Positions 1 to 31,743 of a DNA stretch of 64,000 bases are shown piece after piece. The stretch spans positions 1,687-65,686 of the forward strand of contig JAHOYU010000078.1 in the NCBI GenBank assembly GCA_019038625.1. Reading direction: 5' to 3'. The translations under genes were made by a program, and so were the position numbers. Position 1 is the stretch's first letter; each line of letters starts with the position of its first letter. The notes under the pieces are model-generated. The model was not told the DNA's origin. It searched no databases and saw only the letters and a program-made list of their open reading frames with translations. The stretch comes from Candidatus Latescibacterota bacterium. Its GTDB lineage: Bacteria > Krumholzibacteriota > Krumholzibacteriia > Krumholzibacteriales > Krumholzibacteriaceae.

Positions 1-6
1 GGACAT

Positions 7-480
7 ATGAAGATGTGGAGGAAGGGTCGCAAGAAAGTGACGAAGCAGGCTACCGAGATCGCTGCGGTCGAATTCAATGGAACAGCAGACATGTCGATCT
101 GTATTCCCATGGCCGAGGTAAAGACTTCCCTGGGCAAAGAGGGCGTAATGCTCGTAGATGTCAGGGATCCCGAAGAATATGCCGGCGAGAAGGGCATTAC
201 CGAGCGGAAGGGTCATCTTCCCGGAGCGGTCCGGTTCGATTTCAACAGTATCCTCAATGCTGATGGAACGGTAAAGAGCAAGGACGAGCTTGCGGCGCTG
301 TTTACGGCGGCTGGAATCGTATCTGGCAATCAGAACATCCTCTACTGTGACACAAGCATAAGAGCAGGAATGATCTACATGGTCCTTAACGCTATTCTGG
401 AATATCCGAATGTGAGGGTATATGACGGCGCCATGTCTGAATGGGCAGCCGACCCGGCAAATCCTCTCGATAAGGGTTAA
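7..480 (+). CDS. Rhodanese-domain sulfurtransferase (single domain); may extend upstream of the window
   Basis: Rhodanese-like fold with a putative active-site Cys loop 'YCDTSIRAG' near the C-terminus; ~157 aa. First of a sulfur-relay trio. Confidence 0.65.
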   Translation: MKMWRKGRKKVTKQATEIAAVEFNGTADMSICIPMAEVKTSLGKEGVMLVDVRDPEEYAGEKGITERKGHLPGAVRFDFNSILNADGTVKSKDELAALFTAAGIVSGNQNILYCDTSIRAGMIYMVLNAILEYPNVRVYDGAMSEWAADPANPLDKG

Positions 481-503
481 GACCGGTTCTGAAAGGAGTT
501 CTT

Positions 504-863
504 ATGAGCAAGATGGCAATGACCATAAACGGCGCGAAAGCTGACAACATTTTCCCGGCGATAACGCTGGCGGTGTCCGCGGCAGCTACCGGCGACGAAG
601 TGATCATCTACTTCACCCCCGGCGGAGCCCCGATCCTTGTCAAAGGCGCGATGGAAAAGCTGAACGAAGAGACGGCGAACATGCCGGATCTCATGGAGAT
701 GATGGAAGGGCTGAAAATGCTGGGCGCGCGACTTCTGATGTGTGAGCTGGCGTTGGAGGCAAACGGCATCAAAGAAGAAGATCTTATGGAGGAAGTAGAA
801 GTAGTCGGCGCAACTACATTTGTCGGAGCGGCAGATGGCGCCGGACTTACATTCTCGTTCTAG
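504..863 (+). CDS. DsrE/DsrF-like (YchN-like) sulfur-relay family protein
   Basis: ~119 aa, Gly/Ala-rich alpha/beta pattern typical of the DsrE/DsrF family with a conserved Cys ('LLMCELAL'). RBS 'GGAGTTCTT' upstream. Sits between rhodanese and TusA, as in sHdr/Dsr sulfur-trafficking loci. Confidence 0.5.
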   Translation: MSKMAMTINGAKADNIFPAITLAVSAAATGDEVIIYFTPGGAPILVKGAMEKLNEETANMPDLMEMMEGLKMLGARLLMCELALEANGIKEEDLMEEVEVVGATTFVGAADGAGLTFSF

Positions 864-889
864 ACACGATTGACAGAGAGGAGAAAATT

Positions 890-1114
890 ATGGCTGTAGT
901 ACAGCTGGACGCGATGGGGTTGAAGTGCCCCCAGCCGATACTCAAGGTAATGGCTTTGATCCCGACGCTGACCGGAGGCGAGATCCTTGAAGTAACAGCG
1001 GATTGCCCTTCGTTTCCTACGGATATCAAGGCATGGGCCGAGAAGACAGGCAAGCCCCTTCTCATGTGTTCGAGCGACGGTACTGGCAAGCATACGGCTC
1101 AGATACAGCTTTAG
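890..1114 (+). CDS. tusA: TusA-like sulfur carrier protein
   Basis: 74 aa with the N-terminal 'GLKCPQPILK' CPxP motif diagnostic of TusA/SirA; RBS 'GAGGAGAAAATT' upstream. Confidence 0.75.
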   Translation: MAVVQLDAMGLKCPQPILKVMALIPTLTGGEILEVTADCPSFPTDIKAWAEKTGKPLLMCSSDGTGKHTAQIQL

Positions 1115-1204
1115 AGAGATCGGATCAGGGGCGCTCCGAAAAGAGGAGCCTGTGGCTTCGTTATTTGGACGCCCCTTCCTTATCATCGGTTCTGGACAGG
1201 GAAG

Positions 1205-1654
1205 ATGCAGGAGATCATGGAAAATCAGGAACTGGATCAATTTAAACCAAAAATAGTCGGATTTCTGTGCAACTGGTGCACATACGCGGCAGCTGATCTC
1301 GCGGGTTCGTCGAAGATGGAGATCGATCCGGCACTCACCGTAATCAGGGTGATGTGTTCGAGCAGGGTCGACCATAATCTCGTTTTGACGACTTTTTTCA
1401 GCGGCGCAGACGGCGTGTTGATCGCAGGATGTCATCCGGGCGATTGCCACTATGGAGCTGGCAACTATTACGCGAGGCGCCGGTACGCTCTTCTGAAAAA
1501 AGTGATGGAGTCTCTTGGCCTCGAATCCGAAAGGCTGAAATTGTCATGGATCTCCGCCGCCGAGGGCAACCGCTACGCTGAAGTCGTAAACGGTTTTTCA
1601 GATAAGATCAGGCAATTGGGACCCAACCCGATCAATAAGATGTCAGGCTTATAG
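1205..1654 (+). CDS. mvhD: MvhD/FlxD-like protein (methyl-viologen-reducing hydrogenase delta subunit family), copy 1
   Basis: 'FLCNWCTYAAADLAG...VMCSSRVD...GCHPGDCHY' is the characteristic MvhD Cys pattern; ~149 aa. Confidence 0.8.
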   Translation: MQEIMENQELDQFKPKIVGFLCNWCTYAAADLAGSSKMEIDPALTVIRVMCSSRVDHNLVLTTFFSGADGVLIAGCHPGDCHYGAGNYYARRRYALLKKVMESLGLESERLKLSWISAAEGNRYAEVVNGFSDKIRQLGPNPINKMSGL

Positions 1655-1670
1655 TAAAGGTTAAGCAAAT

Positions 1671-2969
1671 ATGAGTCATTCAGAAAACGTTCTGATAATC
1701 GGAGCCGGCCTGGCCGGGATGACAGCGGCCCTTGAACTGGCACATGCCGGCAAGAAGGTCCACATTGTCGAACGGCTGCCCCTGATCGGGGGCAAGGTCA
1801 TCAAGGACGAGGAGAGTTTTCCCAATCTCGAATGTTCCACCTGTATGGTGGCGCCCGTGCAGCAGGACGTGCTGCAGAATCCTAATATCGTGACCATGAC
1901 TTTTAGTAATGTGGAAAAAATAGAGGGCGAAGCAGGTACTTTCCACGTCACAATAAAGAAGAACGCCCGTTATGTCAGTATGACCGATTGTATAGGGTGC
2001 GGGATGTGTTACGAGCCTTGTCCCGTAACGCAGAAGAACGAATGGGAAGAAAATCTCGGTGATATAAAAGCTATTTACGTTCCCTGCGCGGGTGCGCTTC
2101 CCAATGTGCCGGTCATAGATGCTCAGATCTGCCTCAAGCTCACGGGGAAAGAAGAGTGCAGTGCCTGCGCCGATTCATGCATGTTCGGAGCGATAAAGCT
2201 TGATGATACAGATGAGATTGTGGAGCTTGACGTGGGAGCGATCGTCGTCGCGACCGGAGCCGGGAACTATGATGCCACTACCCTGCCTCAGCTCGGATAC
2301 GGAAAACTTCCCGGAGTATATACGCCTTTCGAATTTGAGAGGCTTTTCGCGTCGAACGGCCCGACCCTGGGAGAATTGACCCTCCGTGACTCTGAAAAGA
2401 ATCCTGAAAAAGTAGTCATCGTACATTGTGTCGGGCGCGAGGAAGTGGGCTATTGTTCCAGCGTCTGTTGCATGTATTCGATGAAATTTGCTCATTTCAT
2501 AAAAAAGAAACTGCCCGACGCGGAGATATTCAATATCTATTCAGATGTCTGCGTGCCAGACAAAAACTATCAGAAATTCTTTAGAAAAGTAGAGGGAGCC
2601 GATACGAAGATGATCTTTTCTCCCGCGATAGACAGCGTGAAAGTGTCGGGGAACGGTTCGGGAATGAAGGTTTCCTATAGCAGTGGAGACGGGTCCGATG
2701 AATCGCTGGACGCGGACATGGTGATATTGGCTACTGCTGTCGTACCCGATCCCGAAGCCGGGACGCTGGCGGAGATGGTGGGCCTCGAGCTGGATCAGCA
2801 TGGCTTTATGGCGGTGAAGGACGATGTCGCTGGTTCAGTTGAAACATCAAGAGAGGGCCTGTTCGTCGCCGGAACTGCGGAAGGACCAAAAGACGTTCAG
2901 ACGGCTGTCATCCAGGCGGAAGCAGTAGTCGGCAGAGTGATGTCATATCTTGGGAAGGTGACCGGATGA
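1671..2969 (+). CDS. hdrA: HdrA-like FAD/Fe-S oxidoreductase (QmoA-like, first-half module of a tandem HdrA)
   Basis: N-terminal GxGxxG FAD fold 'VLIIGAGLAGMTAALELA', inserted ferredoxin 'CIGCGMCYEPCP' / 'CSACADSCMFG', and the HdrA signature 'HCVGREE..YCSSVCCMYSMK'. Stop overlaps the next start (ATGA). Confidence 0.75.
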   Translation: MSHSENVLIIGAGLAGMTAALELAHAGKKVHIVERLPLIGGKVIKDEESFPNLECSTCMVAPVQQDVLQNPNIVTMTFSNVEKIEGEAGTFHVTIKKNARYVSMTDCIGCGMCYEPCPVTQKNEWEENLGDIKAIYVPCAGALPNVPVIDAQICLKLTGKEECSACADSCMFGAIKLDDTDEIVELDVGAIVVATGAGNYDATTLPQLGYGKLPGVYTPFEFERLFASNGPTLGELTLRDSEKNPEKVVIVHCVGREEVGYCSSVCCMYSMKFAHFIKKKLPDAEIFNIYSDVCVPDKNYQKFFRKVEGADTKMIFSPAIDSVKVSGNGSGMKVSYSSGDGSDESLDADMVILATAVVPDPEAGTLAEMVGLELDQHGFMAVKDDVAGSVETSREGLFVAGTAEGPKDVQTAVIQAEAVVGRVMSYLGKVTG

Positions 2970-4651
2970 AAGCAAAAGTCGGAGTATATGTATGTGAATG
3001 CGGCCCGAACATCTCCGAGAAGATAGATATCGACAGGATACTGGAGGCTCTGCCCGGACTCGAGGAGTACAGGGATATCGAGCTTGTCGTGAAGAGATTC
3101 GGCCTGCTCTGTTCAGGAGATGGAAAAACATTTCTTGAAGATGAGATTAACAATAATGGACTTACTCATCTTGTTCTGGGCGCCTGTTCGCCCCGCGACC
3201 ATGACAAGACCTTCATCGCGGTCTGCAAGAAGACCAGCCTCAATCCGTTCCTTTACAAGATAATCAATATCCGTGAGCACTGTGCGTGGATCATTCCGGA
3301 TAAGGACCAGGCTACTGATAAGGCGATCACATACATGAGGGCTGGTATCAACAGGGTGCTGTTTCAGTCGGCTCTCATGGAGAAGAAACTCGATATCAAT
3401 CCGGATGTCATCATAGTCGGCGGCGGGATAGCGGGGATCGAAGCATCTCTTTCTCTCGCGGCAAAAGATAGAATGGTCTATCTGGTCGAAAAGGATGACC
3501 ATCTCGGCGGTAAGGCTGTTTTGTTCGGCGGACTTCTTCCCAGGCAGGGTGGAGGATCAGCAAAGATCAGAGAAAAGATAGAGAGTGTGCTCGGCAATGA
3601 CAGGATAAAGGTATACCTCGAATCGGAACTTAAAAACGTTATCGGGTTCCTCGGCAATTTCGAAGTAATGGTAGCCGGTGGGGAAGGCGGAGAGGAAAGA
3701 GAGCTCAAGGTCGGAGCGATAATAGTCGCAACGGGCAGCGGGATGTCTGATCCATCCGCTCTCGATGGCCTGAAGTATTCGGAAGCAGATGAAGTCATCA
3801 CATCCATGGACGCAGAGCGGATGTTCGCGAAAGATGGGAAGATCTCGTTGAAATCGGGTGGGGAACCAAAATCGGTTGCCCTGATCCACTGCGTAGGCAG
3901 AGAGGAAAAGGGATACTGTTCGAGGATCTGTTGCAACTATATGATGAAGATCGCTGGCTATCTGAAGGATCAGTCGGCGGATATGAGGGTCATAGAGTTT
4001 CACCGGGGGCTCTGTCTGCCGGACAAGGCTGACCAGGGATTCCAGAAAGAGACCGAAGGACGCGGGGTTGAGTTCAAGAGAGTACGGGAATTGACAATAG
4101 CAGGAACAAAAGTCAACGCTGAAGGGATGGACGGCAAGTCCGAGGCCCTCGATTTCGACCTGGTCATCCTGGCTCCTGCTCTAGAACCGTCCGAGGGAAC
4201 GGAAGGTATGGCCGAGCTTCTGGGCGTTCCATTGAGCGAGTCGGGGTATTATCAGGAGATCCACCAGACTACCAACCCGGTCGCTACATCGATCGAGGGT
4301 GTATTTGTAGTTGGAGCAGCGCACAGCCCCAAGGGTATAACGGATTCGATGCTGTTCGCGCAGGCCTCGGCGGGAAAGATACTCAGTCAGCTGATTCCAG
4401 GAGGAAAGATCACACCCGAGATCAAGGTCTCCGAGATCCTCGAAGCGTATTGCACGGGATGTGGAAATTGTCTCGATGTCTGTGTTTACGGGGCGATTTA
4501 TTACGATGAGGGTAGAGGCATATCCGTTGTCAACGAAGCGGTGTGCAGAGGTTGCGGAAACTGTTTCGGAAGCTGCCCGTCGGGCGCGCTCCGCACGAAA
4601 CATTTTACCAATACCCAGCTATACGAAGAAATGAGAGAGGCTATACGATGA
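2966..4651 (+). CDS. hdrA: HdrA-like FAD/Fe-S oxidoreductase (second-half module with HdrA N-terminal-like domain and C-terminal 2x[4Fe-4S])
   Basis: 'VGVYVCECGPNI...EHCAW' domain, second FAD site 'VIIVGGGIAGIEASLSLA', 'HCVGREEKGYCSRICCNYMMK', and C-terminal 'CTGCGNCLDVCVYG...CRGCGNCFGSCP'. With the previous gene it equals the 1019-aa fused protein at 7406. Confidence 0.7.
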   Translation: MKAKVGVYVCECGPNISEKIDIDRILEALPGLEEYRDIELVVKRFGLLCSGDGKTFLEDEINNNGLTHLVLGACSPRDHDKTFIAVCKKTSLNPFLYKIINIREHCAWIIPDKDQATDKAITYMRAGINRVLFQSALMEKKLDINPDVIIVGGGIAGIEASLSLAAKDRMVYLVEKDDHLGGKAVLFGGLLPRQGGGSAKIREKIESVLGNDRIKVYLESELKNVIGFLGNFEVMVAGGEGGEERELKVGAIIVATGSGMSDPSALDGLKYSEADEVITSMDAERMFAKDGKISLKSGGEPKSVALIHCVGREEKGYCSRICCNYMMKIAGYLKDQSADMRVIEFHRGLCLPDKADQGFQKETEGRGVEFKRVRELTIAGTKVNAEGMDGKSEALDFDLVILAPALEPSEGTEGMAELLGVPLSESGYYQEIHQTTNPVATSIEGVFVVGAAHSPKGITDSMLFAQASAGKILSQLIPGGKITPEIKVSEILEAYCTGCGNCLDVCVYGAIYYDEGRGISVVNEAVCRGCGNCFGSCPSGALRTKHFTNTQLYEEMREAIR

Positions 4652-5811
4652 ACGATTCTGCAGCACTGGGAGCGAAGACGAAGGCGGCTGACGGTCCGGG
4701 AGAGGCGATAAGAGCTTTTCTCAGGATGGCGGTGGAAAAGAAGGTCGCCGACGCGGTTCTTGTCCCGGTAAAAGTCCCGGCAGGGAATTCTTACGCATGG
4801 ATACTGGCGACAGACATGTCGATCCTTGATGAGGCCTCGCCGATAGCGCCCGTAATGCCGGTCCAGGGAGCGAAAGCTCTGAAGAGCCTGACAAGGAAAG
4901 GGCACGGCGAGCTGACTGTGATGGCCGTGATGAGGCCCTGCGAGATACGGGGGACGTTTGAGCTCCTCAAGCTCAATCAGGTGAACCTCGAGAAAGTGAT
5001 CCTGGTCAGTTACGATTGCCCGGGCGCCATTCCTTTCCGCGATTATGTGAAAGATCCGGGGGTTGGCGAAAAGAATTTTCAGGCAGTCATGTCGGCAGGT
5101 ACGCCCGCAGAGGAAAATGTCAAACCGGCCTGTATCATCTGCGACGAGTTTTCACAGGTAGACTCCGACATTCATTTCGGATGGTTCGGAGAGTCTGAAG
5201 ATTCGGTTATCGTCCTTCCGTTCAGTAATAAGGGTGGGGAAGTACTGGAATCAATGGGGATGGAATGTTCCGATGATATTTCCGACTGGAAGAAGACGGT
5301 CGCGGGGCTGAAGGAAAAGAAGACAGGGACACGGACCACTACTCTCGCCGAAACAGGCAAAAAGGTTCAGGGGCTGGATGGTCTCATGGGCACGTTCAGT
5401 GAATGTATCGGATGTCACAATTGCATGGCCGTATGTCCCATCTGTTATTGCAGACAATGTTATTTTGATTCGGAAGTCGCAAAGAAGACTTCCGATTTTA
5501 TTCTTGAGACCGCAAAAAAACGTGGTGGATTCGCATTTCCGTCTGACAGAGTGATGTTCCATACGGGCAGGATGACTCACATGAGTCTCTCCTGCGTATC
5601 CTGCGGAATGTGCACCGACGCATGCCCGGTCGATATACCTGTCGCGGAAATTTTCAGTTACATGGCCGACATCACGCAGCCGGCGTTCGAATATACTGCC
5701 GGCCGCAACGACGGAGTTCCCCTGCCACTGAGAAAATATGAGGAGAAAGAAGTGCCCCAGGTACACGAGATAGTGAAAGAAGCCGAGGGAGAGGAGGCTG
5801 CTCATGAGTAG
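4648..5811 (+). CDS. AsrA/HydB/FlxB-FlxC-family Fe-S protein (sulfhydrogenase-beta-like), copy 1
   Basis: 'CIGCHNCMAVCPICYCRQCYFD' followed by '...RVMFHTGRMTHMSLSCVSCGMCTDACP' is the AsrA-type cluster pattern. Start re-assigned to the ATG at 4648, which overlaps the upstream stop. Confidence 0.55.
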   Translation: MNDSAALGAKTKAADGPGEAIRAFLRMAVEKKVADAVLVPVKVPAGNSYAWILATDMSILDEASPIAPVMPVQGAKALKSLTRKGHGELTVMAVMRPCEIRGTFELLKLNQVNLEKVILVSYDCPGAIPFRDYVKDPGVGEKNFQAVMSAGTPAEENVKPACIICDEFSQVDSDIHFGWFGESEDSVIVLPFSNKGGEVLESMGMECSDDISDWKKTVAGLKEKKTGTRTTTLAETGKKVQGLDGLMGTFSECIGCHNCMAVCPICYCRQCYFDSEVAKKTSDFILETAKKRGGFAFPSDRVMFHTGRMTHMSLSCVSCGMCTDACPVDIPVAEIFSYMADITQPAFEYTAGRNDGVPLPLRKYEEKEVPQVHEIVKEAEGEEAAHE

Positions 5812-6901
5812 GATAGATGTACAGAAAGCTTCCTCTAAAGGATTGAAAGAGCTAATCGCCTATCTGCTCGAGAGCGGGAGAGTCTCAGCTGTATTTTCCT
5901 TGAGAAAGGATTCGAAAACCGGCTCTTATGACCTCGGCCTGATCACTGAAGAGGCCGGGATGGAAACAGCGGAACCGCTGGCGCCGGTCATGATAGCGAA
6001 CGCGGGACAGGTTCTTTCCTCCTTCGCTCCACCGGCAGAACCGATAGCCGTGGTCCTGAAGCCATGCGAACTCAGAGCCTTTATCGAAAGAGCAAAGAGG
6101 GAGCAGGGCAGCCTGGAGAATATCCTGACAATATCCATGACCTGCGGTGGAGTCCTGACGCGGGACAGGGTCGTCAGCGGATTCGACAGTGACAAGGTCG
6201 GCGATTATGAAAATCATTGTTTTGCTGGAGATATACATCCCGAGACTCGTGATACCTGCAAGGCATGTGAATATTTTGTTCCCATGAATGCCGACATAAC
6301 CGTTTCTATGGCAGGCCAGGAAGATGCCGGGACCAGGTGCCATATATATCTGAACACCGATCTGGCCAGGGAAATGGCGAAGGGGTTCGGCCCGGACCCT
6401 GCCGAAGAAGATTTCGATAGCTCGATTACCGAGGGGCTGGCATCAAAAAGGGCGGCTGAAAAAGAGAGGCTTTACGGCGCGGTGATGTCGGGCAAGGGTG
6501 GGCTGGATGCCGTTATCGATACGTTCGGAAAATGTCTGGGATGTCACGGTTGCAGCAGGGTCTGTCCGATATGTTATTGCATGATCTGTGATTTCGAATC
6601 GAGAAATTTCGATAACGACATGCCGTATTTCGAAAAAGAACTGGAGCAGAAAGGGGCGCTGAGGCTTCCTCCGGATACGATGTTCTTTCATATAGGCAGG
6701 ATGATCCACATGAGTTTTTCATGTGTAGGTTGCGGCCAGTGTTCCGATGTCTGTCCGGCTGATATCCCGGTGGCGTCAGTGTTCAAGAAGGTCGGCGAAC
6801 AGACCGCGGCGATATTCGAATATGTGCCCGGCAGGGACATCGAGGAATCGATACCTGTGATGGTGTTCAAGGAAGAAGAGTTTACAGAATTTATTGACTG
6901 A
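5804..6901 (+). CDS. AsrA/HydB/FlxB-FlxC-family Fe-S protein, copy 2
   Basis: 'CLGCHGCSRVCPICYCMICDFE ... FFHIGRMIHMSFSCVGCGQCSDVCP'; paralogous to the previous gene; ATGAGTAG overlap with the upstream stop. Confidence 0.55.
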   Translation: MSRIDVQKASSKGLKELIAYLLESGRVSAVFSLRKDSKTGSYDLGLITEEAGMETAEPLAPVMIANAGQVLSSFAPPAEPIAVVLKPCELRAFIERAKREQGSLENILTISMTCGGVLTRDRVVSGFDSDKVGDYENHCFAGDIHPETRDTCKACEYFVPMNADITVSMAGQEDAGTRCHIYLNTDLAREMAKGFGPDPAEEDFDSSITEGLASKRAAEKERLYGAVMSGKGGLDAVIDTFGKCLGCHGCSRVCPICYCMICDFESRNFDNDMPYFEKELEQKGALRLPPDTMFFHIGRMIHMSFSCVGCGQCSDVCPADIPVASVFKKVGEQTAAIFEYVPGRDIEESIPVMVFKEEEFTEFID

Positions 6902-6938
6902 TAGAAGGCGCGGATAGAAGCCGGCCGGGGAGCGGGAG

Positions 6939-7364
6939 ATGGAAAAGAAATTCGTACCAAGAATAACGAGTTTTCTCTGCACATGGTGTTCGTATACCGG
7001 TGCGGATCTGGCCGGAACGGGGAGGATGCAGTACCCGACAGCGATCATACCGATCAAGGTGATGTGCTCAAGCCGCGTGGATCCTGTTTTTATCCTCAAG
7101 GCGTATCTGAAAGGTTCCGACGGAGTGTTTCTCGGTGGCTGCCATCCAGGCGATTGTCATTACGAAGTGGGAAACTACCATACACGCAGAAGATTCGCGA
7201 TTGTGAAAAAGGTATTTGAATTGCTCGGCCTGGAATCGGAAAGGCTCCGGCTGTCATGGATATCGGCCTCTGAAGGCCCGAAGTTTGCCAGGGTGGCGAA
7301 CGAATTCACAGAAAAGATCATTGAGATGGGTGAGAACGAAGCAAAGAAAAAGATATTTCTATAG
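6939..7364 (+). CDS. mvhD: MvhD/FlxD-like protein, copy 2
   Basis: 'FLCTWCSYTGADLAG...VMCSSRVDP...GGCHPGDCHY'. Confidence 0.8.
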   Translation: MEKKFVPRITSFLCTWCSYTGADLAGTGRMQYPTAIIPIKVMCSSRVDPVFILKAYLKGSDGVFLGGCHPGDCHYEVGNYHTRRRFAIVKKVFELLGLESERLRLSWISASEGPKFARVANEFTEKIIEMGENEAKKKIFL

Positions 7365-7405
7365 CCAAACATGGCGAGTCACAGCGAAGGCTCAAGGAAG
7401 GACCG

Positions 7406-10400
7406 ATGGGTACCAAAAGGAAATCAGCACTTGTTGTAGGCGCTGGAATAGCGGGGATTCAGGCAGCTCTTGATCTTGCGGATATGGGAGTGAAAGTACA
7501 TCTCATTGAGGATACACCGACTATCGGCGGACGCATGCCGCAGCTCGATAAGACATTTCCTACAAACGACTGTTCCATGTGCATCCTTTCGCCCAAGATG
7601 AGTGAGTGTTCAAGGCATCCGAATATTACTATTCATATCCTTTCTTCTCTTGATTCGATATCGGGAGTCCCCGGTAATTTTACATGCACTATCACCGAGA
7701 GGGCGAAGTATGTCGATCCGGTCAAATGCGTGGCCTGCGGACTCTGCGAGGAAAAGTGTCCTGTCAAGATATCTGATGATTTCGACACAGGCCTGAGAAA
7801 CCGCAAGGCTATCTCGAGGTATTTTCTCCAGTCCATCCCGGCCGAATATACGATCGACGCGGAGAAGTGCCTTTACCTGACAAAAGGTGTATGCAGACTT
7901 TGCGAAAAGGTCTGTACCGCCGGCGCGATAAAATACGACGATACCGACAAGGCGATCGAACTCAAAGTCGGCGCCGTCATCATGGCTGCTGGTATAGATC
8001 CCTTCGACCCGATCGGATTCGGTCATTTCGGATATAAAAGGTACGACAATGTAGTCACCTCCCTGGAGTTTGAGAGGATGCTGTCGGCTTCCGGTCCGCT
8101 GGGAGGACACGTGGTCAGGGCCTCTGACGGGAAAGAACCAAAAAGGCTCGCGTTCATCCAGTGCGTAGGGTCGAGGGACGAGGGGATAAAGAAAAATTAC
8201 TGTTCATCGGCGTGTTGTATGTTCGCGATCAAACAGTCGATAATTGCCAGGGAACATATAAAAGATCTCGATGCCACGATCTTCTACATGGATATAAGGG
8301 CGTTCGGCAAGGATTTCGACAAGTACTATGATAAGGCCGAGAATCAGTACAACGTGAAATTCACAAGGTCGAAGGTCGCGGACATCCTCGAAAACGATGA
8401 TGGCACGCTGAGGCTGAGGCATACGCTGGAGAACGGCGAGATCCACTACGAGGAGTTCGACATGGTCGTACTCTCGATCGGCCTTCAGGCCCGGGAAGCG
8501 AACAAGGTTCTGTCGAAAGATCTGGACTTCAAACTCAACGAATTTGGTTTCTGCCGTTCGGACAGGTTCAAACCGCTTCAGACGACTCGCGAGGGGATCT
8601 TTGTCTGCGGCGCGATGAACGGGCCGAAGGATATCCCCGAGTCGGTCGTATCGGCATCGGGAGCCGTGGCCAACGCGGTGAGGTTCCTCAAGCTTGAGAG
8701 ACAGGAACTTCCCTCTGGCGAAGATGCCATACAGGAAAAAGATGTTTCAGGCGACCGGCCGCGAGTCGGCGTGTTTGTCTGCCACTGCGGGATTAATATC
8801 GCGGGTGTGGTCGACGTGAAGAACGTGGCCGAATATGCCTCGACCCTGGAAAATGTCGAGCATTCCGAAGATGTCATATATGCCTGTTCACCTGATGGCC
8901 TGGAAACGATAAAGAAAAGGATCGAGGAGCAGGGACTCAATCGGGTAGTGGTCGCGGCTTGTACGCCCAGGACTCATGAGCCTCTGTTCAGGGAGACGAT
9001 CAACGAGAAGGGGCTCAACCCCTATCTCTTTGAGATGGCCAATATACGCGATCAATGTTCATGGCCCCATATGGATCAGCCAGAACTGGCCACGACAAAA
9101 TCCCGCGACCTCGTTGAGATGGGTGTCGCGAAAGCAAGAGGGCTTACACCGTTGAAGAGGCTGCCGATAGGGATAGATCCGAAAGCCCTTGTCGTTGGTG
9201 GTGGTCTTGCAGGCATGACGGCGGCTCTGTCGCTTGCCGATGCCGGGCAGCAGGTATATCTGGTCGAGAAGGAAGCCGAGCTCGGCGGGAATATGAGAAA
9301 TATCTTTTTCAATTTCGGCGACGACCCCCAGGTCTTCTTAAAGAAATTGATCAAGCAGGTCAAGCGGCACAAGAAGATAGACGTCTTTACTGGAAGTAGG
9401 ATAGATAATATTGCTGGATACATAGGCAATTTCAAGACCACGGTGAACGGAAGTAATGGAGGGGGCTCCAGCACGGTTGATCATGGAGTCGTTATCGTAG
9501 CGACAGGCGGAGAAGAACACGAGACCGAAGAATACATGTCGGGGAAAAGCACGAGGATAGTCAGCCAGGTCGAGTTCGAGCGCATGCTCAAGGAAAACGA
9601 CTTTCCTGTCGGCAGGCTGAATAAAGTCGTGATGATCCAGTGCGTAGGTTCTAGAGAGGAAGGCCGGATGTACTGCAGCAGGGTCTGTTGTACCAAGGCG
9701 GTCAAGAACGCACTCGAATTGAAAAAACTCAAGGCGAAGGCAGACATCTACTTCGCGTACAGAGATATGAGGACTTATGGGTTCAGAGAGAAATATTACA
9801 CTGACCTCCGGGATGAAGGGGCAGTATTTCTCCGATATTCACTTGAACAGAAACCGGTCGTAAAGCTGATCGATCCGGAAGAACCCGATAGCAGGGCTAT
9901 AGTCACTGTCGTCGATCCGATCCTCGAAAAGGAAGTCGTTATCGAAGCAGATCTACTTGTCCTGGCCAAGGCGATCGACGCGCCGAAAGAGAACGAAGAG
10001 TTGGCGAAGATGCTGAAGGTCCCCCTGAACGGGGAAGGGATGTTCCTCGAGGCCCACGTGAAGCTGCGGCCTGTTGATTTTGCTACGGAAGGCGTTTTCG
10101 TATGTGGTCTGGCTCACGGGCCGAAAGATATGGACGAATCCCTCGCCCAGGCAAGGGCAGCGGCGAGCAGGGCGCTGACCTTCCTTAACAGGAAGGAGAT
10201 CCTGGCCGAGGGCACGATATGCCAGGTCCAGGAATCCCGATGCTCGGGGTGTGCCTATTGTGAATCTATATGCGCCTATTCCGCGATCGAGGTCGACCCG
10301 GAAAAGCAGATCGCCATTGTCAACGAGGCTCTCTGCAAGGGTTGTGGAGCATGCGCAGCTTCATGCCGTTGCGGGGCACTGGATTTGAGAGGGTTTACGA

Positions 10401-10465
10401 ACGAGCAGCTGTATTCTGTTTTTGATTCACTGGATATGGCAATAACAGAACAAATTGGAGATTAA
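7406..10465 (+). CDS. hdrA: Tandem (double) HdrA-like flavoprotein, 1019 aa
   Basis: Two FAD folds ('ALVVGAGIAGIQAALDLAD...TNDCSMC' and 'ALVVGGGLAGMTAALSLADAG'). Two HdrA signatures ('QCVGSRDEG..YCSSACCMFAIK', 'QCVGSREEGRMYCSRVCCTKAVK'). An inserted ferredoxin, a middle 'VGVFVCHCGINI...DQCSWPH' domain and a C-terminal 2x[4Fe-4S]. Strong RBS 'AAGGAAGGA'. Confidence 0.8.
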   Translation: MGTKRKSALVVGAGIAGIQAALDLADMGVKVHLIEDTPTIGGRMPQLDKTFPTNDCSMCILSPKMSECSRHPNITIHILSSLDSISGVPGNFTCTITERAKYVDPVKCVACGLCEEKCPVKISDDFDTGLRNRKAISRYFLQSIPAEYTIDAEKCLYLTKGVCRLCEKVCTAGAIKYDDTDKAIELKVGAVIMAAGIDPFDPIGFGHFGYKRYDNVVTSLEFERMLSASGPLGGHVVRASDGKEPKRLAFIQCVGSRDEGIKKNYCSSACCMFAIKQSIIAREHIKDLDATIFYMDIRAFGKDFDKYYDKAENQYNVKFTRSKVADILENDDGTLRLRHTLENGEIHYEEFDMVVLSIGLQAREANKVLSKDLDFKLNEFGFCRSDRFKPLQTTREGIFVCGAMNGPKDIPESVVSASGAVANAVRFLKLERQELPSGEDAIQEKDVSGDRPRVGVFVCHCGINIAGVVDVKNVAEYASTLENVEHSEDVIYACSPDGLETIKKRIEEQGLNRVVVAACTPRTHEPLFRETINEKGLNPYLFEMANIRDQCSWPHMDQPELATTKSRDLVEMGVAKARGLTPLKRLPIGIDPKALVVGGGLAGMTAALSLADAGQQVYLVEKEAELGGNMRNIFFNFGDDPQVFLKKLIKQVKRHKKIDVFTGSRIDNIAGYIGNFKTTVNGSNGGGSSTVDHGVVIVATGGEEHETEEYMSGKSTRIVSQVEFERMLKENDFPVGRLNKVVMIQCVGSREEGRMYCSRVCCTKAVKNALELKKLKAKADIYFAYRDMRTYGFREKYYTDLRDEGAVFLRYSLEQKPVVKLIDPEEPDSRAIVTVVDPILEKEVVIEADLLVLAKAIDAPKENEELAKMLKVPLNGEGMFLEAHVKLRPVDFATEGVFVCGLAHGPKDMDESLAQARAAASRALTFLNRKEILAEGTICQVQESRCSGCAYCESICAYSAIEVDPEKQIAIVNEALCKGCGACAASCRCGALDLRGFTNEQLYSVFDSLDMAITEQIGD

Positions 10466-10885
10466 ATGAGTGAATGGGAGCCAAAGATTCTTGCAGTCCT
10501 GTGTAACTGGTGTTCATACGCCGGGGCTGATCTCGCGGGTGTTTCGAGGATGCAATATCCGCCGAACATCCGTGTAGTGAGAGTGCCCTGTTCGGGCAGG
10601 GTCGATCCTCTCTTTATCCTCAAGGGTCTGCAGAGCGGGTACGATGGGGTCCTGGTTTCGGGATGTCATCCTGGAGATTGTCATTATATTTCGGGCAACT
10701 ATGTCGCGCGAAGACGTTTCGCGGTTCTCAAGCCTCTTCTCGAGTTCGTCGGAATAGAGCCGGACAGGGTCCAGTTCTCCTGGATATCTGCCGGTGAGGG
10801 AGAGCGTTTCGCGGAAGTAGTCAGCAAGGTCACAGAGGATATAAAGAAGATCGGTCCCGCGAAGAGACTGGTCAAGGGAGCATGA
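10466..10885 (+). CDS. mvhD: MvhD/FlxD-like protein, copy 3
   Basis: 'VLCNWCSYAGADLAG...VPCSGRVDP...GCHPGDCHY'; immediately follows the tandem HdrA. Confidence 0.8.
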   Translation: MSEWEPKILAVLCNWCSYAGADLAGVSRMQYPPNIRVVRVPCSGRVDPLFILKGLQSGYDGVLVSGCHPGDCHYISGNYVARRRFAVLKPLLEFVGIEPDRVQFSWISAGEGERFAEVVSKVTEDIKKIGPAKRLVKGA

Positions 10886-11850: not shown

Positions 11851-11855
11851 GGAGA

Positions 11856-12890: not shown

Positions 12891-12900
12891 GGAAGTCCAG

Positions 12901-13734: not shown

Positions 13735-13749
13735 AAGGAGAATGACCGG

Positions 13750-14220: not shown

Positions 14221-14272
14221 TGGTCCGTCTGGCTGCGGACGTCTTCAGGGAGACCCTGTAAGAGGAGAGCTC

Positions 14273-15397: not shown

Positions 15398-15436
15398 AGG
15401 ACAACTCGAAAAAAGATCGGACAGGAAAACGGTGTG

Positions 15437-16312: not shown

Positions 16313-16361
16313 GAATAATTTGACCGTATCATGAATACATTGAATCAGCAGAAGGAAAATA

Positions 16362-18215: not shown

Positions 18216-18217
18216 AT

Positions 18218-21768: not shown

Positions 21769-21801
21769 GTGGCCGTAACATTCTTTCAGGAAAAGAATTA
21801 T

Positions 21802-22854: not shown

Positions 22855-22867
22855 GGGAGAGAAGGGT

Positions 22868-25531: not shown

Positions 25532-25533
25532 TC

Positions 25534-26013: not shown

Positions 26014-26025
26014 TGGAGAGGACAA

Positions 26026-26958: not shown

Positions 26959-26973
26959 GTCGCGGAGGCAAGT

Positions 26974-27387: not shown

Positions 27388-27427
27388 ACAGGATAACAGG
27401 GCGGCCCATCGCCAGAGAGAGCGCAGA

Positions 27428-31733: not shown

Positions 31734-31743
31734 AGGGAGCGCT

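What the first reader, a model, noticed from the sequence alone, without database searches (positions are those of the whole stretch)
7..6901. Sulfur-relay trio (rhodanese-DsrE-TusA) directly upstream of an Hdr-like module in a cluster with no HdrB
Rhodanese, DsrE-like and TusA (CPxP) genes immediately precede MvhD-HdrA-HdrA-FlxBC-like genes. TusA/DsrE/rhodanese are hallmarks of persulfide trafficking into sHdr or Dsr systems. Yet no CCG-domain (HdrB) protein exists anywhere in the window, and AsrA-like proteins take its place. This suggests a sulfane-sulfur, polysulfide or thiosulfate-derived substrate handled by an unconventional HdrA/AsrA-like reductase. It could link sulfur reduction or oxidation to the hydrogenase complex.
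Basis: partly seen in the sequence, partly recalled or inferred. Interest (0 to 1): 0.65.

Follow-up and report, generated by a model that had tools for sequence, protein, structure and literature searches.

The report
Sulfur carriers wired to HdrB-less Hdr complex
Two small sulfur-carrier genes (DsrE-like and TusA) sit at the head of a gene cassette, conserved across many uncultured anaerobic bacterial phyla, for an unusual electron-splitting enzyme that lacks its normal disulfide-reducing subunit; this suggests an undescribed way of using imported sulfur compounds as an electron sink.

Summary

1. The "rhodanese" is cut by the window edge. The full protein has 297 aa, two domains and a Sec signal peptide, so it is periplasmic and not a cytoplasmic relay partner.
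2. The two "FlxBC-like" proteins are paralogous homologues of methanogen FdhB/ElpB. Those are the FAD/Fe-S electron-input subunits of Fdh-Hdr and Elp-Hdr complexes. They are only remotely AsrA-like.
3. The window has no CCG/HdrB domain, but some other lineages carry a true CCG protein directly upstream of DsrE.

The main result is conservation. DsrE-TusA-MvhD-HdrA1-HdrA2-FdhB-like-FdhB-like-MvhD is an 8-gene cassette found in Krumholzibacteriota (the likely source), Cloacimonadota, Eisenbacteria, KSB1, Marinimicrobia, Delongbacteria, Aminicenantes, WOR-3, Dehalococcoidia and others. Of 38 evaluable loci seeded from the FdhB-like protein, 31 have DsrE and TusA directly upstream.

HdrA1 and HdrA2 carry complementary domain sets, including the Cys197/N-terminal-domain complementarity. 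This predicts an asymmetric heterodimer.

Just left of the window, close relatives encode ArsR, YeeD, YeeE, two rhodanese-like lipoproteins, a porin and the periplasmic rhodanese. This import module occupies different positions in the cassette in different phyla.

Best reading (inferred): imported sulfane sulfur or thiosulfate, carried on DsrE/TusA, is the redox partner of an HdrB-independent bifurcating complex. I rate it a new variant of a known kind, with moderate to high interest.

The parts
1..480 (+). 3' part (codons 139-297) of a tandem-domain periplasmic rhodanese. The window begins inside the gene. The catalytic loop CDTSIRA lies in this part.
   Evidence: Window position 1 aligns to L001 position 1496 at 100% identity. 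The full ORF is L001 1082..1975, 297 aa, with two Pfam Rhodanese stretches, 1.4e-33. Signal peptide MKRNLTIIAAVVLAILFSQGINA|QV; all 20 orthologues have a signal peptide and a C[EDA][TS]S.RA loop.
504..863 (+). DsrE-like sulfur carrier, 119 aa, cytoplasmic, with a single invariant Cys80 (CEL). A compact member of the DsrE2/DsrE3 (PF13686) supergroup.
   Evidence: Pfam DrsE_2 1.1e-10 and DsrE 1.8e-9. NCBIfam DsrE2 scores only 26.6 bits against a cut-off of 210. Closest PDB entries are 2qs7 at 4e-11 and 3mc3 (DsrE3A) at 3e-8, with the Cys aligned. Cys80 is invariant in 23 sequences.
890..1114 (+). TusA-family sulfur carrier, 74 aa, with the CPQP active-site motif.
   Evidence: Pfam TusA 1.5e-16. 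It is a distinct paralogue of the YeeD-like TusA (77 aa) found next to YeeE in relatives, at 42-45% identity.
1205..1654 (+). MvhD/ElpC-type [2Fe-2S] connector protein (MvhD1).
   Evidence: Pfam FlpD 4.3e-51. The GCHPGDCHY motif is present; its first Cys is replaced by a TGA codon (Sec) in Cloacimonadota orthologues.
1671..2969 (+). HdrA1. It has the FAD/thioredoxin-reductase-like domain, the inserted ferredoxin domain and the Cys194/Cys197 motif (ECSTC). It lacks the N-terminal and C-terminal ferredoxin domains.
   Evidence: It aligns to 5odc_A residues 144-564, 2.4e-76. Domain comparison is in alignment A4.
2966..4651 (+). HdrA2. It has the N-terminal Fe-S domain, the FAD domain and the C-terminal 2x[4Fe-4S] ferredoxin domain. 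It lacks the Cys197 motif and the inserted ferredoxin domain. Predicted heterodimer partner of HdrA1.
   Evidence: PDB 8rvu_a 1.5e-91 in two stretches; NCBIfam stretches map to model positions 6-237 and 312-640. Alignment A4. The same complementarity is described for ANME tandem HdrA paralogues in PMC9012536.
4648..5811 (+). FdhB/ElpB-like Fe-S (probably flavo-)protein 1, 387 aa. The start at 4648 overlaps the HdrA2 stop by 4 bases (ATGA). It has 15 invariant Cys.
   Evidence: PDB 9t1s_M 1.9e-23, 8rvu_E 3.6e-20, 7bkb_E 5.7e-17. Invariant Cys list from alignment A3. Orthologues are 370-415 aa. Family size: 178 representatives at E<=1e-30.
5804..6901 (+). FdhB/ElpB-like Fe-S (probably flavo-)protein 2, 365 aa, a paralogue of the preceding gene.
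   Evidence: 29% identity to the 387-aa protein, 4e-53. PDB 9t1s_M 9.3e-32 over residues 14-118 and 149-347. AF2 model with pLDDT 78.7; best fold matches 8rvu_E (ElpB) and 7bkb_E (FdhB), TM 0.63-0.66. Public names include 'formate dehydrogenase subunit beta'.
6939..7364 (+). MvhD2, a second [2Fe-2S] connector. It is the last gene of the conserved 8-gene cassette and lies outside the finding's coordinates.
   Evidence: Pfam FlpD 1.5e-49. It follows FeS365 in most loci that extend that far, including those without HdrA3.
7406..15397 (+). Neighbouring module, co-located in the Krumholzibacteriota and Cloacimonadota lineages: fused HdrA3 (HdrA1-type plus HdrA2-type halves), MvhD3, an Fe-S protein, an AsrA/HydB-like protein, an AsrB/HydG/FlxA-like protein, an HdrC-like protein and FrhB. 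It resembles Flx-Hdr but has FrhB where HdrB would be.
   Evidence: Pfam and NCBIfam results. Alignment A4. The order is conserved in L082, L085, L096, L106, L110, L116, L123, L127 and L141.

Best explanation
The region is the right-hand part of one long operon for handling an imported inorganic sulfur compound and coupling it to a soluble, HdrB-independent, flavin-based electron-bifurcating (or confurcating) complex.

Shown from sequence:
1. Immediately left of the window, the near-identical strain L002 and its relatives encode the following, in order: an ArsR-family regulator with two invariant Cys, a YeeD-like TusA, a YeeE/YedE transporter, two rhodanese-like lipoproteins, an anion-type Porin_O_P, and the Sec-exported tandem rhodanese whose 3' half opens the window.
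2. Cytoplasmic DsrE-like (one invariant Cys) and TusA (CPxP) follow.
3. Next come MvhD1, HdrA1, HdrA2, two FdhB/ElpB-like paralogues and MvhD2. HdrA1 and HdrA2 have complementary domain sets, so together they make one complete, asymmetric HdrA unit.

Inferred:
- An anionic sulfur species (thiosulfate or polysulfide) enters through the porin. It is handled by the periplasmic rhodaneses and imported by YeeE/YeeD.
- Its sulfane sulfur is carried as a persulfide or thiosulfonate on DsrE/TusA.
- This carrier-bound sulfur serves as the higher-potential electron acceptor of the HdrA1/HdrA2 complex and is released as H2S.
- One ElpB-like/MvhD arm feeds electrons from a two-electron donor (NAD(P)H, H2 or a deazaflavin-like cofactor, via neighbouring Flx-like or hydrogenase modules). 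The inserted ferredoxin domain of HdrA1 reduces ferredoxin.
- The second FdhB-like/MvhD pair is proposed to occupy the output position that HdrBC holds in methanogens.
- Physiologically, this would make thiosulfate, S0 or polysulfide an energy-yielding electron sink for fermentative FCB-group bacteria in sulfidic sediments.
For: Gene identities.

Operon-like packing.

Synteny:
- The full cassette is present in 38 of 80 DsrE-seeded genome loci from more than 10 phyla, with 33 further truncated prefixes.
- Of 38 evaluable FdhB-like-seeded metagenome loci, 31 have DsrE+TusA directly upstream of MvhD1.

Import module:
- The ArsR-YeeD-YeeE-Rhd-Rhd-porin-Rhd set lies in front of DsrE in L002 (97% DsrE identity to the window) and 10 further genome loci (L003, L004, L006, L007, L009-L011, L013, L040 in part), plus three metagenome loci.
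- The same YeeD-YeeE-rhodanese set is inserted between DsrE and TusA in Cloacimonadota and between HdrA2 and the FdhB-like gene in other lineages.
- ArsR directly precedes DsrE in many loci without the import module.

HdrA complementarity, including Cys197. This matches the heterodimer logic proposed for ANME tandem HdrA (PMC9012536).

Precedents:
- ElpB/ElpC are experimentally shown electron-input modules for HdrA (PMC12350162).
- DsrE-TusA also precede a canonical HdrA-MvhD-[NiFe] hydrogenase set with no HdrBC in the 7-kb contig recovered, which ends just after the hydrogenase genes (L050). A HydBG-[NiFe] hydrogenase follows the cassette in L149 and L130.
- The yeeE/dsrE/tusA cluster of the fermenter T. 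maritima is induced 42.6-fold by thiosulfate, which is reduced in the cytoplasm (PMC9431562).
- TsuB/YeeD cleaves thiosulfate to a Cys-persulfide plus sulfite (as reviewed in PMC11582611).
Against: - No catalytic site for persulfide or disulfide reduction is identifiable. There is no CCG domain. All 15 invariant Cys of the FdhB-like proteins are also found in methanogen FdhB/ElpB, where they are accounted for by four [4Fe-4S] clusters.
- FAD binding by the FdhB-like proteins was not tested.
- The heterodimer has only one N-terminal and one C-terminal HdrA domain, which are the parts that form the mobile donor arm in Elp-Hdr. The placement of the second FdhB-like/MvhD pair is therefore guesswork.
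- Most Cloacimonadota loci have the cassette without an adjacent import module.
- Some lineages do have HdrB or HdrCB next to DsrE, so HdrB encoded elsewhere in this genome cannot be excluded.
- The ArsR regulator is not specifically of the SqrR/BigR persulfide-sensing type, and its Cys positions differ.
- The direction of electron flow, the donor and the sulfur species are all unproven.
- There are no expression or biochemical data for any member.
Confidence: 0.45

Rival explanations
1. Protein-thiol redox carrier model. TusA and DsrE are not shuttles for imported sulfur. They are themselves the recyclable redox substrate, a 'bacterial heterodisulfide': a TusA-S-S(n)-DsrE mixed di- or persulfide, analogous to DsrC or CoM-S-S-CoB. 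The HdrA complex reduces it and other enzymes, such as a thiol-dependent fumarate reductase, re-oxidise it.
For: - DsrE-TusA are retained with the cassette in many lineages that have no adjacent importer.
- In L031, L063, L071 and L077 a CCG protein (HdrB or an HdrC-B fusion) is directly upstream of DsrE.
- In L027, L028 and L031 the cassette is flanked by an Frd/Tfr-like flavoprotein and by succinyl-CoA synthetase.
- L050 pairs DsrE-TusA with HdrA-Mvh hydrogenase and shows no HdrBC in the 7-kb contig recovered.
Against: - Each carrier has a single conserved Cys, and no precedent exists for such a mixed disulfide.
- The repeated, independent linkage with YeeE/YeeD/rhodanese/porin and an ArsR-type regulator fits an external, variable substrate better than a fixed cofactor.
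- There is no HdrB in this window to reduce a disulfide.
Confidence: 0.15
2. Assimilatory or housekeeping role. YeeE/YeeD, DsrE and TusA import and deliver sulfur, for example from thiosulfate, for cysteine, Fe-S cluster, molybdopterin or thio-cofactor synthesis. The Fe-S-rich Hdr-type operon needs these. Adjacency would then reflect supply or maturation, not substrate.
For: - TsuA/TsuB (YeeE/YeeD) is an assimilatory thiosulfate importer in E. coli, and TusA is a pleiotropic sulfur hub (PMC11582611).
- The operon encodes dozens of Fe-S clusters and a molybdopterin enzyme.
Against: - Sulfide is abundant in the source habitats (sulfidic springs, sediments from sulfate-methane transition zones, Guaymas), so a dedicated envelope-spanning scavenging system is hard to justify.
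- The link is specifically to this HdrA1/HdrA2/FdhB-like cassette in both search directions, not to Fe-S enzymes in general.
- No cysteine-synthesis, suf/isc or moa genes are adjacent.
Confidence: 0.12
3. Oxidative, sHdr-like role. Sulfane sulfur delivered by DsrE/TusA is oxidised, as in the sHdr-LbpA pathway of sulfur oxidisers, and the electrons enter the HdrA complex.
For: The accessory set (ArsR-type regulator, YeeE-like importer, TusA, DsrE-type protein, rhodanese) mirrors that of shdr loci (PMC11094781; PMC11582611).
Against: - The defining sHdr parts are absent. There are no HdrB1/B2/C1/C2 CCG proteins, and no lipoate-binding protein appeared in any Pfam scan of the window.
- The HdrAs are far closer to methanogen bifurcating HdrA (about 1e-85) than to sHdrA 6tjr (1e-23 to 5e-29).
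- The context is strictly anaerobic and fermentative: POR, group-4 hydrogenase, citrate lyase.
Confidence: 0.08
4. Sulfur-independent bifurcating oxidoreductase. The complex interconverts ferredoxin with two soluble hydride carriers at the two FdhB-like flavin sites, in an Nfn- or Elp-like manner. DsrE/TusA, or a selenium-trafficking YedE/YedF-like function, are only loosely co-regulated passengers.
For: - ElpB/FdhB use FAD to exchange hydride with a diffusible cofactor (PMC12350162).
- The cassette has no recognisable sulfur-reactive catalytic subunit.
- 5 of 38 evaluable metagenome loci lack DsrE/TusA.
- TusA's best NCBIfam hit is YedF, and MvhD is a selenoprotein in Cloacimonadota.
Against: - The DsrE-TusA position is conserved across phyla at 43-62% protein identity, with the importer inserted inside the cassette. 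This is hard to explain for passengers.
- Sec-MvhD does not correlate with presence of the importer: Krumholzibacteriota have the importer and Cys-MvhD.
Confidence: 0.15

Closest known systems
Elp-Hdr and Fdh-Hdr complexes of methanogens (ElpABC-HdrABC of M. marburgensis, PDB 8RVU; FdhAB-MvhD-HdrABC of M. hungatei, PDB 7BKB)
   Same: HdrA with its FAD domain and the characteristic C..G.R(D/E)...CS..CC cluster motif. An MvhD/ElpC [2Fe-2S] connector. An FdhB/ElpB-type subunit, with sequence E-values down to 9e-32 and the best fold matches.
   Different: There is no HdrB/HdrC in the cassette and no ElpA/FdhA. It has two FdhB-like paralogues and two MvhDs. HdrA is split into two complementary partial proteins. 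The hosts are bacteria with no evidence of F420 or CoM/CoB. DsrE/TusA head the operon.
Tandem or fused HdrA paralogues with FdhB but no FdhA in ANME-1/ANME archaea (genomic prediction; Chadwick et al. 2022, PMC9012536)
   Same: The same complementarity is present: one HdrA has the N-terminal domain and lacks Cys197, and the other lacks that domain and has Cys197. A fused version also exists (HdrA3 here). FdhB-like and MvhD genes are adjacent.
   Different: The ANME clusters are archaeal and discussed in terms of F420 and CoM/CoB. That paper never mentions TusA or DsrE (0 occurrences). In the fusion here the order of the halves is reversed.
sHdr-LbpA sulfur-oxidation loci with their sulfur-transferase cascade (TusA, DsrE3B/C, Rhd, SoxT/YeeE importer, ArsR-type SoxR/sHdrR)
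   Same: The same kinds of accessory genes sit next to an HdrA-containing complex: an ArsR-family regulator with two Cys, a YeeE-family importer, TusA, a DsrE-family carrier and rhodaneses.
   Different: There are no sHdrB1/B2/C1/C2 proteins, no sHdrH and no LbpA. The HdrA is of the bifurcating methanogen type with MvhD. The rhodaneses are periplasmic. The likely direction is reductive.
yeeE/dsrE/tusA thiosulfate-uptake cluster of Thermotoga maritima, and TsuA/TsuB (YeeE/YeeD) of E. coli and S. thermophila
   Same: A PF04143 transporter with invariant Cys, a YeeD-like TusA and a DsrE-family protein in one unit. In T. maritima the host is an anaerobic fermenter that reduces thiosulfate or S0 in the cytoplasm.
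   Different: In T. maritima the proposed reductases are NSR and MBX, not an Hdr-type complex. Here the carriers are fused into an Hdr/MvhD/FdhB-like operon and are preceded by a porin and periplasmic rhodaneses.
FlxABCD-HdrABC of Desulfovibrio and QmoABC of sulfate reducers
   Same: Flx: MvhD-like FlxD, AsrA/HydB-like FlxB/C and NAD(P)H-binding FlxA have counterparts downstream at 10466..13734. Qmo: two different HdrA paralogues act together with an MvhD-like domain.
   Different: There is no HdrB, no membrane QmoC and no aprAB. Sequences of FlxB/C and QmoA/B were not compared directly.

Membership tests
Methanogen-type HdrABC with Mvh/Fdh/Elp donor module | HdrA with the FAD/TrxR-like domain and the HdrA-specific Fe-S motif | tested here: met
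   PDB HdrA hits at 6e-85 and 1.5e-91. The motifs HCVGREEVGYCSSVCC and HCVGREEKGYCSRICC are conserved.
Methanogen-type HdrABC with Mvh/Fdh/Elp donor module | HdrB with two CCG domains (non-cubane clusters), plus HdrC | tested here: not met
   No PF02754 hit and no CCG motif outside NuoE in 64 kb. The motif scan found no candidate CCG-domain protein upstream in L002, L004 or L010 either. An HdrC-like gene exists only at 13750..14220 and is followed by FrhB.
Methanogen-type HdrABC with Mvh/Fdh/Elp donor module | MvhD/ElpC connector and FdhB/ElpB-type Fe-S flavoprotein | tested here: met
   FlpD 4e-51 and 1.5e-49. FdhB/ElpB 9e-32 over the full length and the best fold match. FAD binding itself was not tested.
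Asymmetric (heterodimeric) HdrA as proposed for ANME tandem HdrA | Complementary presence of the N-terminal domain and Cys197 in the two paralogues | tested here: met
   HdrA1 has no N-terminal domain and has ECSTC, which aligns to M. wolfeii C194/C197. HdrA2 has the N-terminal domain and lacks the motif. The inserted and C-terminal ferredoxin domains are also complementary.
sHdr-LbpA sulfur-oxidising system | shdrC1B1AHC2B2 core with CCG-type HdrB1/B2 | tested here: not met
   No CCG proteins were found. The HdrAs match sHdrA (6tjr) only at 1e-23 to 5e-29, against about 1e-85 for bifurcating HdrA.
sHdr-LbpA sulfur-oxidising system | Lipoate-binding protein LbpA encoded with the cluster | tested here: not met
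   No lipoyl or GcvH-type domain appeared in any Pfam scan of window ORFs of 110 aa or more, or of the L010 upstream genes.
Rhd-TusA-DsrE2 cytoplasmic sulfur relay (Allochromatium type) | Cytoplasmic single-domain rhodanese that donates to TusA | tested here: not met
   The rhodanese here has two domains and a Sec signal peptide in all 20 orthologues. The two further rhodanese-like proteins upstream are lipoproteins without a CX4R loop.
Rhd-TusA-DsrE2 cytoplasmic sulfur relay (Allochromatium type) | TusA with a CPxP Cys, and a DsrE-family protein with the active-site Cys | tested here: met
   TusA 1.5e-16 with CPQP. DsrE-like with invariant Cys80 aligned to the Cys of 3mc3 and 2qs7. It is not a DsrE2 equivalog: 26.6 bits against a cut-off of 210.
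YeeE/YeeD (TsuA/TsuB) thiosulfate importer | PF04143 membrane protein with essential conserved Cys, plus an adjacent TusA-like YeeD | tested here: met
   This applies to relatives, not the window itself. L010 YeeE scores 1.4e-45. Two Cys are invariant in 30 sequences. YeeD is 77 aa with GLSCPMP. The pair is present in L002, the near-identical strain. Transport specificity is not testable here.
FlxABCD-HdrABC | FlxB/FlxC are AsrA/HydB-family proteins; FlxA binds NAD(P)H; HdrBC are present | tested here: not met
   The two proteins at 4648..6901 are FdhB-like and share only 21% identity with the window's AsrA-like protein. AsrA/AsrB-like genes lie downstream at 11856..13734. There is no HdrB.

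The most novel reading that the evidence does not exclude
Carrier-bound sulfane sulfur (TusA-SSH or DsrE-S-SO3-), or a TusA/DsrE protein per- or disulfide, is the high-potential acceptor of a previously unrecognised HdrB-independent flavin-based electron bifurcation. The reaction would be carried out by an asymmetric HdrA1/HdrA2 heterodimer with two ElpB-like arms. Fermentative candidate phyla (Krumholzibacteriota, Cloacimonadota, Marinimicrobia, Aminicenantes and others) would then gain low-potential ferredoxin, and hence ion-motive force through group-4 hydrogenase/Mrp complexes, from reducing thiosulfate, polysulfide or S0. This would be a new mode of sulfur-dependent energy conservation without Dsr, Psr or HdrB.
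Probability: 0.3. Interest if true: 0.85.

Novelty: new variant of a known kind. Interest (0 to 1): 0.66.

Why it matters
HdrA-based electron bifurcation is understood only where HdrBC reduces CoM-S-S-CoB. What bacterial HdrA complexes without HdrBC reduce is an open question.

This cassette offers a concrete, testable candidate, because the substrate carriers (DsrE and TusA) are encoded in the same operon and in some phyla a complete outer-membrane-to-cytoplasm sulfur import route is built into it.

It occurs in abundant uncultured anaerobes of sulfidic sediments, springs and digesters. If the model holds, these 'fermenters' take part in cryptic sulfur cycling, producing sulfide from thiosulfate, polysulfide or S0. 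Current marker-gene surveys (dsr, psr, phs, sox, shdr) would miss that activity or mislabel it as sulfur oxidation or as formate dehydrogenase.

Tried and rejected
- **HdrB at the window edge.** I looked for a hidden HdrB just outside the window. L002, L004 and L010 reach 8-10 kb upstream and have no CCG ORF.
- **FlxB/FlxC or AsrA identity of the two Fe-S proteins.** Rejected. Similarity to the window's AsrA-like protein is weak and full-length similarity to FdhB/ElpB is strong.
- **Rhodanese as a cytoplasmic relay partner.** Rejected because of the signal peptides.
- **Selenium trafficking (YedE/YedF).** Sec-MvhD occurs in Cloacimonadota, but it does not correlate with the importer, and this organism has Cys-MvhD. 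Kept only as part of a low-probability rival.
- **ArsR as a SqrR/BigR-type persulfide sensor.** It shows only generic ArsR/SmtB similarity and the Cys positions differ. Sensing is left as inference.
- **Promoter and terminator scan of 1..20000.** Promoter-like sites were no more frequent than in shuffles; terminator-like sites were modestly more frequent (25 against 16.6 ± 4.7), but none gave usable operon boundaries.
- **Literature.** Seven full-text searches found no paper describing this cassette. The review by Appel et al. 2021 on HdrA(BC) modules is not held and may discuss related clusters.

Full report
**What is in the window**

On the + strand, positions 1-7364 carry nine tightly packed genes, with gaps of 0-90 bp and three overlaps of 4-8 bp.

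| Coordinates | Gene | Evidence |
|---|---|---|
| 7..480 | rhodanese domain | Pfam 2.6e-15 |
| 504..863 | DsrE-family protein | DrsE_2 1.1e-10, DsrE 1.8e-9 |
| 890..1114 | TusA | 1.5e-16, CPQP |
| 1205..1654 | MvhD | FlpD 4e-51 |
| 1671..2969 | HdrA-like, 432 aa | — |
| 2966..4651 | HdrA-like, 561 aa | — |
| 4648..5811 | Fe-S protein, 387 aa | — |
| 5804..6901 | Fe-S protein, 365 aa | — |
| 6939..7364 | second MvhD | — |

**No CCG domain**

The claim that the window has no CCG (HdrB) domain holds. The only CCG tripeptide in any reading frame of 80 aa or more lies in a NuoE-like protein. Pfam scans of the plausible ORFs of 110 aa or more (about 68 of the 108 listed) give no PF02754 hit.

**First correction: the rhodanese**

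An exact-match look-up of HdrA1 found an identical 8-kb contig, L001. Window position 1 corresponds to L001 position 1496, inside a 297-aa ORF.

- The full protein has two rhodanese domains.
- Its N-terminus, MKRNLTIIAAVVLAILFSQGINA|QV, is a classic Sec signal peptide.
- All 20 orthologues recovered have such a peptide, plus a C[EDA][TS]S.RA active-site loop in the second domain.

The rhodanese is therefore periplasmic. It cannot hand sulfur directly to cytoplasmic DsrE/TusA. The gene in front of it is a signal-peptide Porin_O_P-type outer-membrane protein.

**What lies left of the window**

A genome scan seeded with a DsrE alignment returned 80 loci. The nearest is a Candidatus Krumholzibacteriia MAG (L002, 97% DsrE identity), which indicates the source lineage.

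In L002, L010 and eight further genome loci from four phylum-level labels (Krumholzibacteriota, Eisenbacteria, KSB1, Neomarinimicrobiota), several of them cut by a contig end, the genes upstream of DsrE are, in order:

1. an ArsR-family regulator with two invariant Cys;
2. a YeeD-like TusA (77 aa, GLSCPMP);
3. a YeeE/YedE transporter (PF04143 1.4e-45, two invariant Cys);
4. two rhodanese-like lipoproteins (LxGC lipobox, no CX4R loop);
5. the porin;
6. the exported tandem rhodanese.

Together they form an envelope-spanning import route.

The same YeeD-YeeE-rhodanese(-porin) set sits in other places in other lineages:

- between DsrE and TusA in several Cloacimonadota (L024, L029, L055, L070, L106);
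- between HdrA2 and the first FdhB-like gene in another group (L134-L136, L146, L150);
- directly after DsrE in stand-alone clusters (L060, L072-L074).

ArsR directly precedes DsrE in many loci that lack the importer. Repeated insertion of the importer at different points of one cassette is strong evidence for a functional link.

**Second correction: the 'FlxBC-like' proteins**

The 387-aa and 365-aa proteins are paralogues (29% identity, 4e-53). They resemble the window's genuine AsrA/HydB-like protein only weakly (21% identity, 4e-9).

Against solved structures they match methanogen FdhB-type subunits over nearly their full length:

- 9t1s_M, 9e-32;
- 8rvu_E, 3.5e-28;
- 7bkb_E, 3.4e-25.

An AlphaFold model of the 365-aa protein has mean pLDDT 78.7, high in the first ~230 residues and low in the Fe-S region. 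Its best fold matches are 8rvu_E and 7bkb_E (TM 0.63-0.66), then FrhB, HCAR and the F420 domain of Fsr.

8rvu_E is ElpB of the Elp-Hdr complex. [quoted passage not shown] The 15 invariant Cys of the family are shared with FdhB/ElpB.

Public annotation already calls these proteins 'formate dehydrogenase subunit beta' or 'F420 hydrogenase beta C-terminal domain'. At 50% clustering the family has 178 representatives at E<=1e-30 among 1.84 billion proteins.

**The two HdrAs are complementary halves**

| Feature | HdrA1 | HdrA2 |
|---|---|---|
| Match | M. wolfeii HdrA (5odc_A) residues 144-564 | NCBIfam HdrA-family model positions 6-237 and 312-640 (PDB match in two stretches) |
| N-terminal Fe-S domain | absent | present |
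| Cys194/Cys197 motif | present (ECSTC) | absent |
| Inserted ferredoxin domain | present | absent |
| C-terminal ferredoxin domain | absent | present |

In the M. wolfeii structure, Cys197 of one protomer completes the N-terminal cluster of the other. Chadwick et al. used exactly this complementarity to propose heterodimers of tandem HdrA paralogues in ANME archaea. They also noted HdrA clusters with FdhB but without FdhA in ANME-1 (PMC9012536).

The downstream 1019-aa HdrA3 (7406..10465) is a fusion of an HdrA1-type half and an HdrA2-type half.

**Conservation**

Window proteins were compared by BLASTP with ORFs of the loci.

- DsrE-seeded genome loci: the order DsrE-TusA-MvhD-HdrA1-HdrA2-FdhB-like-FdhB-like is complete in 38 of 80. 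It is a contig-truncated prefix in 33. It differs in 9, four of which merely have the importer inserted.
- Lineages labelled in those records: Krumholzibacteriota, Eisenbacteria, KSB1, Neomarinimicrobiota, Cloacimonadota, Delongbacteria, Latescibacterota, Aminicenantes, WOR-3, Acidobacteriota, Dehalococcoidia, Armatimonadota and 'Eubacteriales' bins.
- Metagenome loci seeded from the FdhB-like protein: of 38 with enough upstream sequence, 31 have DsrE and TusA directly upstream of MvhD1, 2 have TusA only and 5 have neither.

The loci are not phylogenetically independent. Even so, FdhB-like identity to the window ranges from 43% to 62%, so the linkage is old and maintained.

**HdrB is not universally absent**

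Pfam-confirmed CCG proteins lie immediately upstream of DsrE in four loci:

- L031 and L063: HdrC-B fusion type, 3e-27 and 1.5e-26;
- L071: HdrC plus HdrB;
- L077: two CCG proteins plus HdrC plus a canonical HdrA.

In L027, L028 and L031 the cassette is flanked by an Frd/Tfr-like flavoprotein and by succinyl-CoA synthetase.

In L050, DsrE-TusA precede MvhD, a canonical HdrA, MvhD and the [NiFe] hydrogenase small and large subunits. In L149 and L130 a HydB/G fusion with [NiFe] subunits follows the cassette.

Two consequences follow. DsrE/TusA associate with HdrA/MvhD systems more broadly than with this cassette alone. An HdrB encoded elsewhere in this genome cannot be excluded.

**Family placement of the carriers**

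- The DsrE-like protein belongs to the DsrE2/DsrE3 (PF13686) supergroup. Its closest solved structures are 2qs7 (4e-11) and 3mc3 (2.6e-8), with the active-site Cys aligned.
- It fails the NCBIfam DsrE2 equivalog cut-off by a wide margin. At 119 aa it is more compact than the sHdr-associated DsrE3 types classified by Tanabe et al. (PMC11094781).
- The ArsR regulator is a generic ArsR/SmtB member. Its two Cys are not at the SqrR/BigR positions, so persulfide sensing is only an inference.

**Mechanism**

Shown: gene content, domain architecture, predicted localisation and conserved linkage.

Inferred:
1. An anionic sulfur compound enters through the porin and is handled by periplasmic rhodaneses.
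2. It is imported by YeeE/YeeD. TsuB/YeeD is reported to cleave thiosulfate into a Cys-persulfide and sulfite (reviewed in PMC11582611).
3. The sulfane sulfur moves to DsrE/TusA.
4. It is reduced to H2S by the HdrA1/HdrA2 complex, acting as the higher-potential acceptor. Ferredoxin is reduced at the inserted ferredoxin domain of HdrA1.
5. Electrons enter through an ElpB-like/MvhD arm.

From general knowledge, persulfide/sulfide couples lie well above NAD(P)H or H2 and not far from CoM-S-S-CoB. That would make such a bifurcation feasible.

The nearest experimental precedent for the physiology is T. maritima. Its yeeE/dsrE/tusA cluster is induced 42.6-fold by thiosulfate, and thiosulfate or S0 is reduced in the cytoplasm as an electron sink (PMC9431562).

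Weak points:
- No persulfide- or disulfide-reactive catalytic site can be named.
- The role of the second FdhB-like/MvhD pair is a guess. The heterodimer has only one N-terminal and one C-terminal HdrA domain, which are the parts that build the mobile donor arm in Elp-Hdr.
- The donor, the direction of electron flow and the sulfur species are all open.

**Surroundings**

- 7406..15397 encodes HdrA3, MvhD3, an Fe-S protein, AsrA/HydB-like and AsrB/HydG/FlxA-like proteins, an HdrC-like protein and FrhB. This is an Flx-Hdr-like module with FrhB where HdrB would be.
- Next come NuoE/F/G-like proteins fused to HdrA parts, and a second AsrA/AsrB-like pair.
- An Fdh-alpha-like molybdopterin protein follows, then a group-4 [NiFe] hydrogenase. 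Both Ni-binding CxxC pairs are intact, and it has an Mrp-type antiporter module and a HycI protease.
Its coupling to the sulfur module is only a plausible use of reduced ferredoxin, not something I could test.

**Novelty**

Seven full-text searches found no description of this cassette. One relevant review could not be read.

Each piece has a known relative: Elp/Fdh-Hdr, the ANME tandem HdrAs, the sHdr accessory sulfur transferases and TsuAB. The combination appears undescribed. It consists of carriers, an asymmetric HdrA, two ElpB-like subunits and two MvhDs, with no HdrBC and with an importer built into the operon.

I rate it a new variant of a known kind, with interest about 0.66. The linkage is solid and widely distributed, and it makes the open question of the substrate of HdrB-less bacterial HdrA complexes directly testable. 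The mechanism, however, rests on inference.

Noticed in passing
L012 10666..10866 and 17204..17407; L022 12389..12589; L030, L053, L075 (compare window 1205..1654, 6939..7364, 10466..10885): All three MvhD paralogues in Cloacimonadota and Delongbacteria loci carry an in-frame TGA in place of the first Cys of the G-C-HPGDCHY motif. The window organism has Cys there. These are therefore probable selenocysteine-containing MvhD proteins in bacteria, three per operon.
   Followed up: partly
window 7406..10465: The 1019-aa HdrA3 is a fusion of an HdrA1-type half and an HdrA2-type half. The first half has the Cys197 motif DCSMC and the inserted ferredoxin domain. [quoted passage not shown] It is a single-chain version of the predicted heterodimer encoded just upstream.
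   Followed up: yes
window 13750..15397: An HdrC-like protein (TIGR03290 1.4e-27) is followed by a full FrhB (frhB 1.4e-44) rather than HdrB. This HdrC-FrhB pairing is conserved after the AsrA/AsrB-like genes in many relatives. It is a second case in this operon of an FrhB-family protein sitting where HdrB would be expected.
   Followed up: partly
window 15434..16312 and 18155..21490: Two unusual fusions: the first ~130 residues of an HdrA FAD domain are fused to NuoE, and a NuoG-like N-terminus (2Fe-2S plus 4Fe-4S) is fused to an HdrA-like flavoprotein with a C-terminal ferredoxin domain. They flank a NuoF homologue.
   Followed up: no
window 23741..36517: An Fdh-alpha-like molybdopterin protein and a 4Fe-4S protein lie in front of a group-4 membrane-bound [NiFe] hydrogenase. 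The large subunit keeps RICGIC and DPCYSC. The complex also has MbhD/E, MnhB/E/G and NuoL/M-type antiporter subunits and a HycI protease. The layout resembles a formate-hydrogenlyase/Mrp-Mbh system, and it is preceded by a second AsrA/AsrB-like pair (21769..23686).
   Followed up: partly
L027, L028, L031 (for example L031 1790..9958 and 16998..19051): In an unclassified lineage the cassette is flanked upstream by HdrA-MvhD, an Frd/Tfr-like FAD_binding_2 flavoprotein and an HdrC-B-type CCG protein, and downstream by succinyl-CoA synthetase alpha and beta. This hints at a link to fumarate/succinate redox chemistry.
   Followed up: partly
L050 3..6318; L149 12851..16879; L130 9624..13644: In L050, DsrE-TusA directly precede MvhD, a canonical 644-aa HdrA, MvhD and [NiFe] small and large subunits, with no HdrBC in the 7-kb contig recovered. 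In L149 and L130 a fused HydB/HydG (AsrA+AsrB-like, ~649 aa) plus [NiFe] small and large subunits follows the cassette.
   Followed up: partly
window 4543..4651: The longest ORF for the first FdhB-like gene starts at GTG 4543 (422 aa) and overlaps HdrA2 by 109 bases. Orthologue lengths (370-415 aa) and the ATGA overlap support the ATG at 4648 (387 aa).
   Followed up: yes
window 36612..51293 and 56404..57897: Fermentative context: a pyruvate/2-oxoacid:ferredoxin oxidoreductase on the minus strand, pyruvate kinase, citrate lyase (a fused ACP + beta-type subunit and the alpha subunit) and a PEPCK-like protein. A papain-family protease carries a T9SS C-terminal sorting domain, which fits an FCB-group bacterium.
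   Followed up: no
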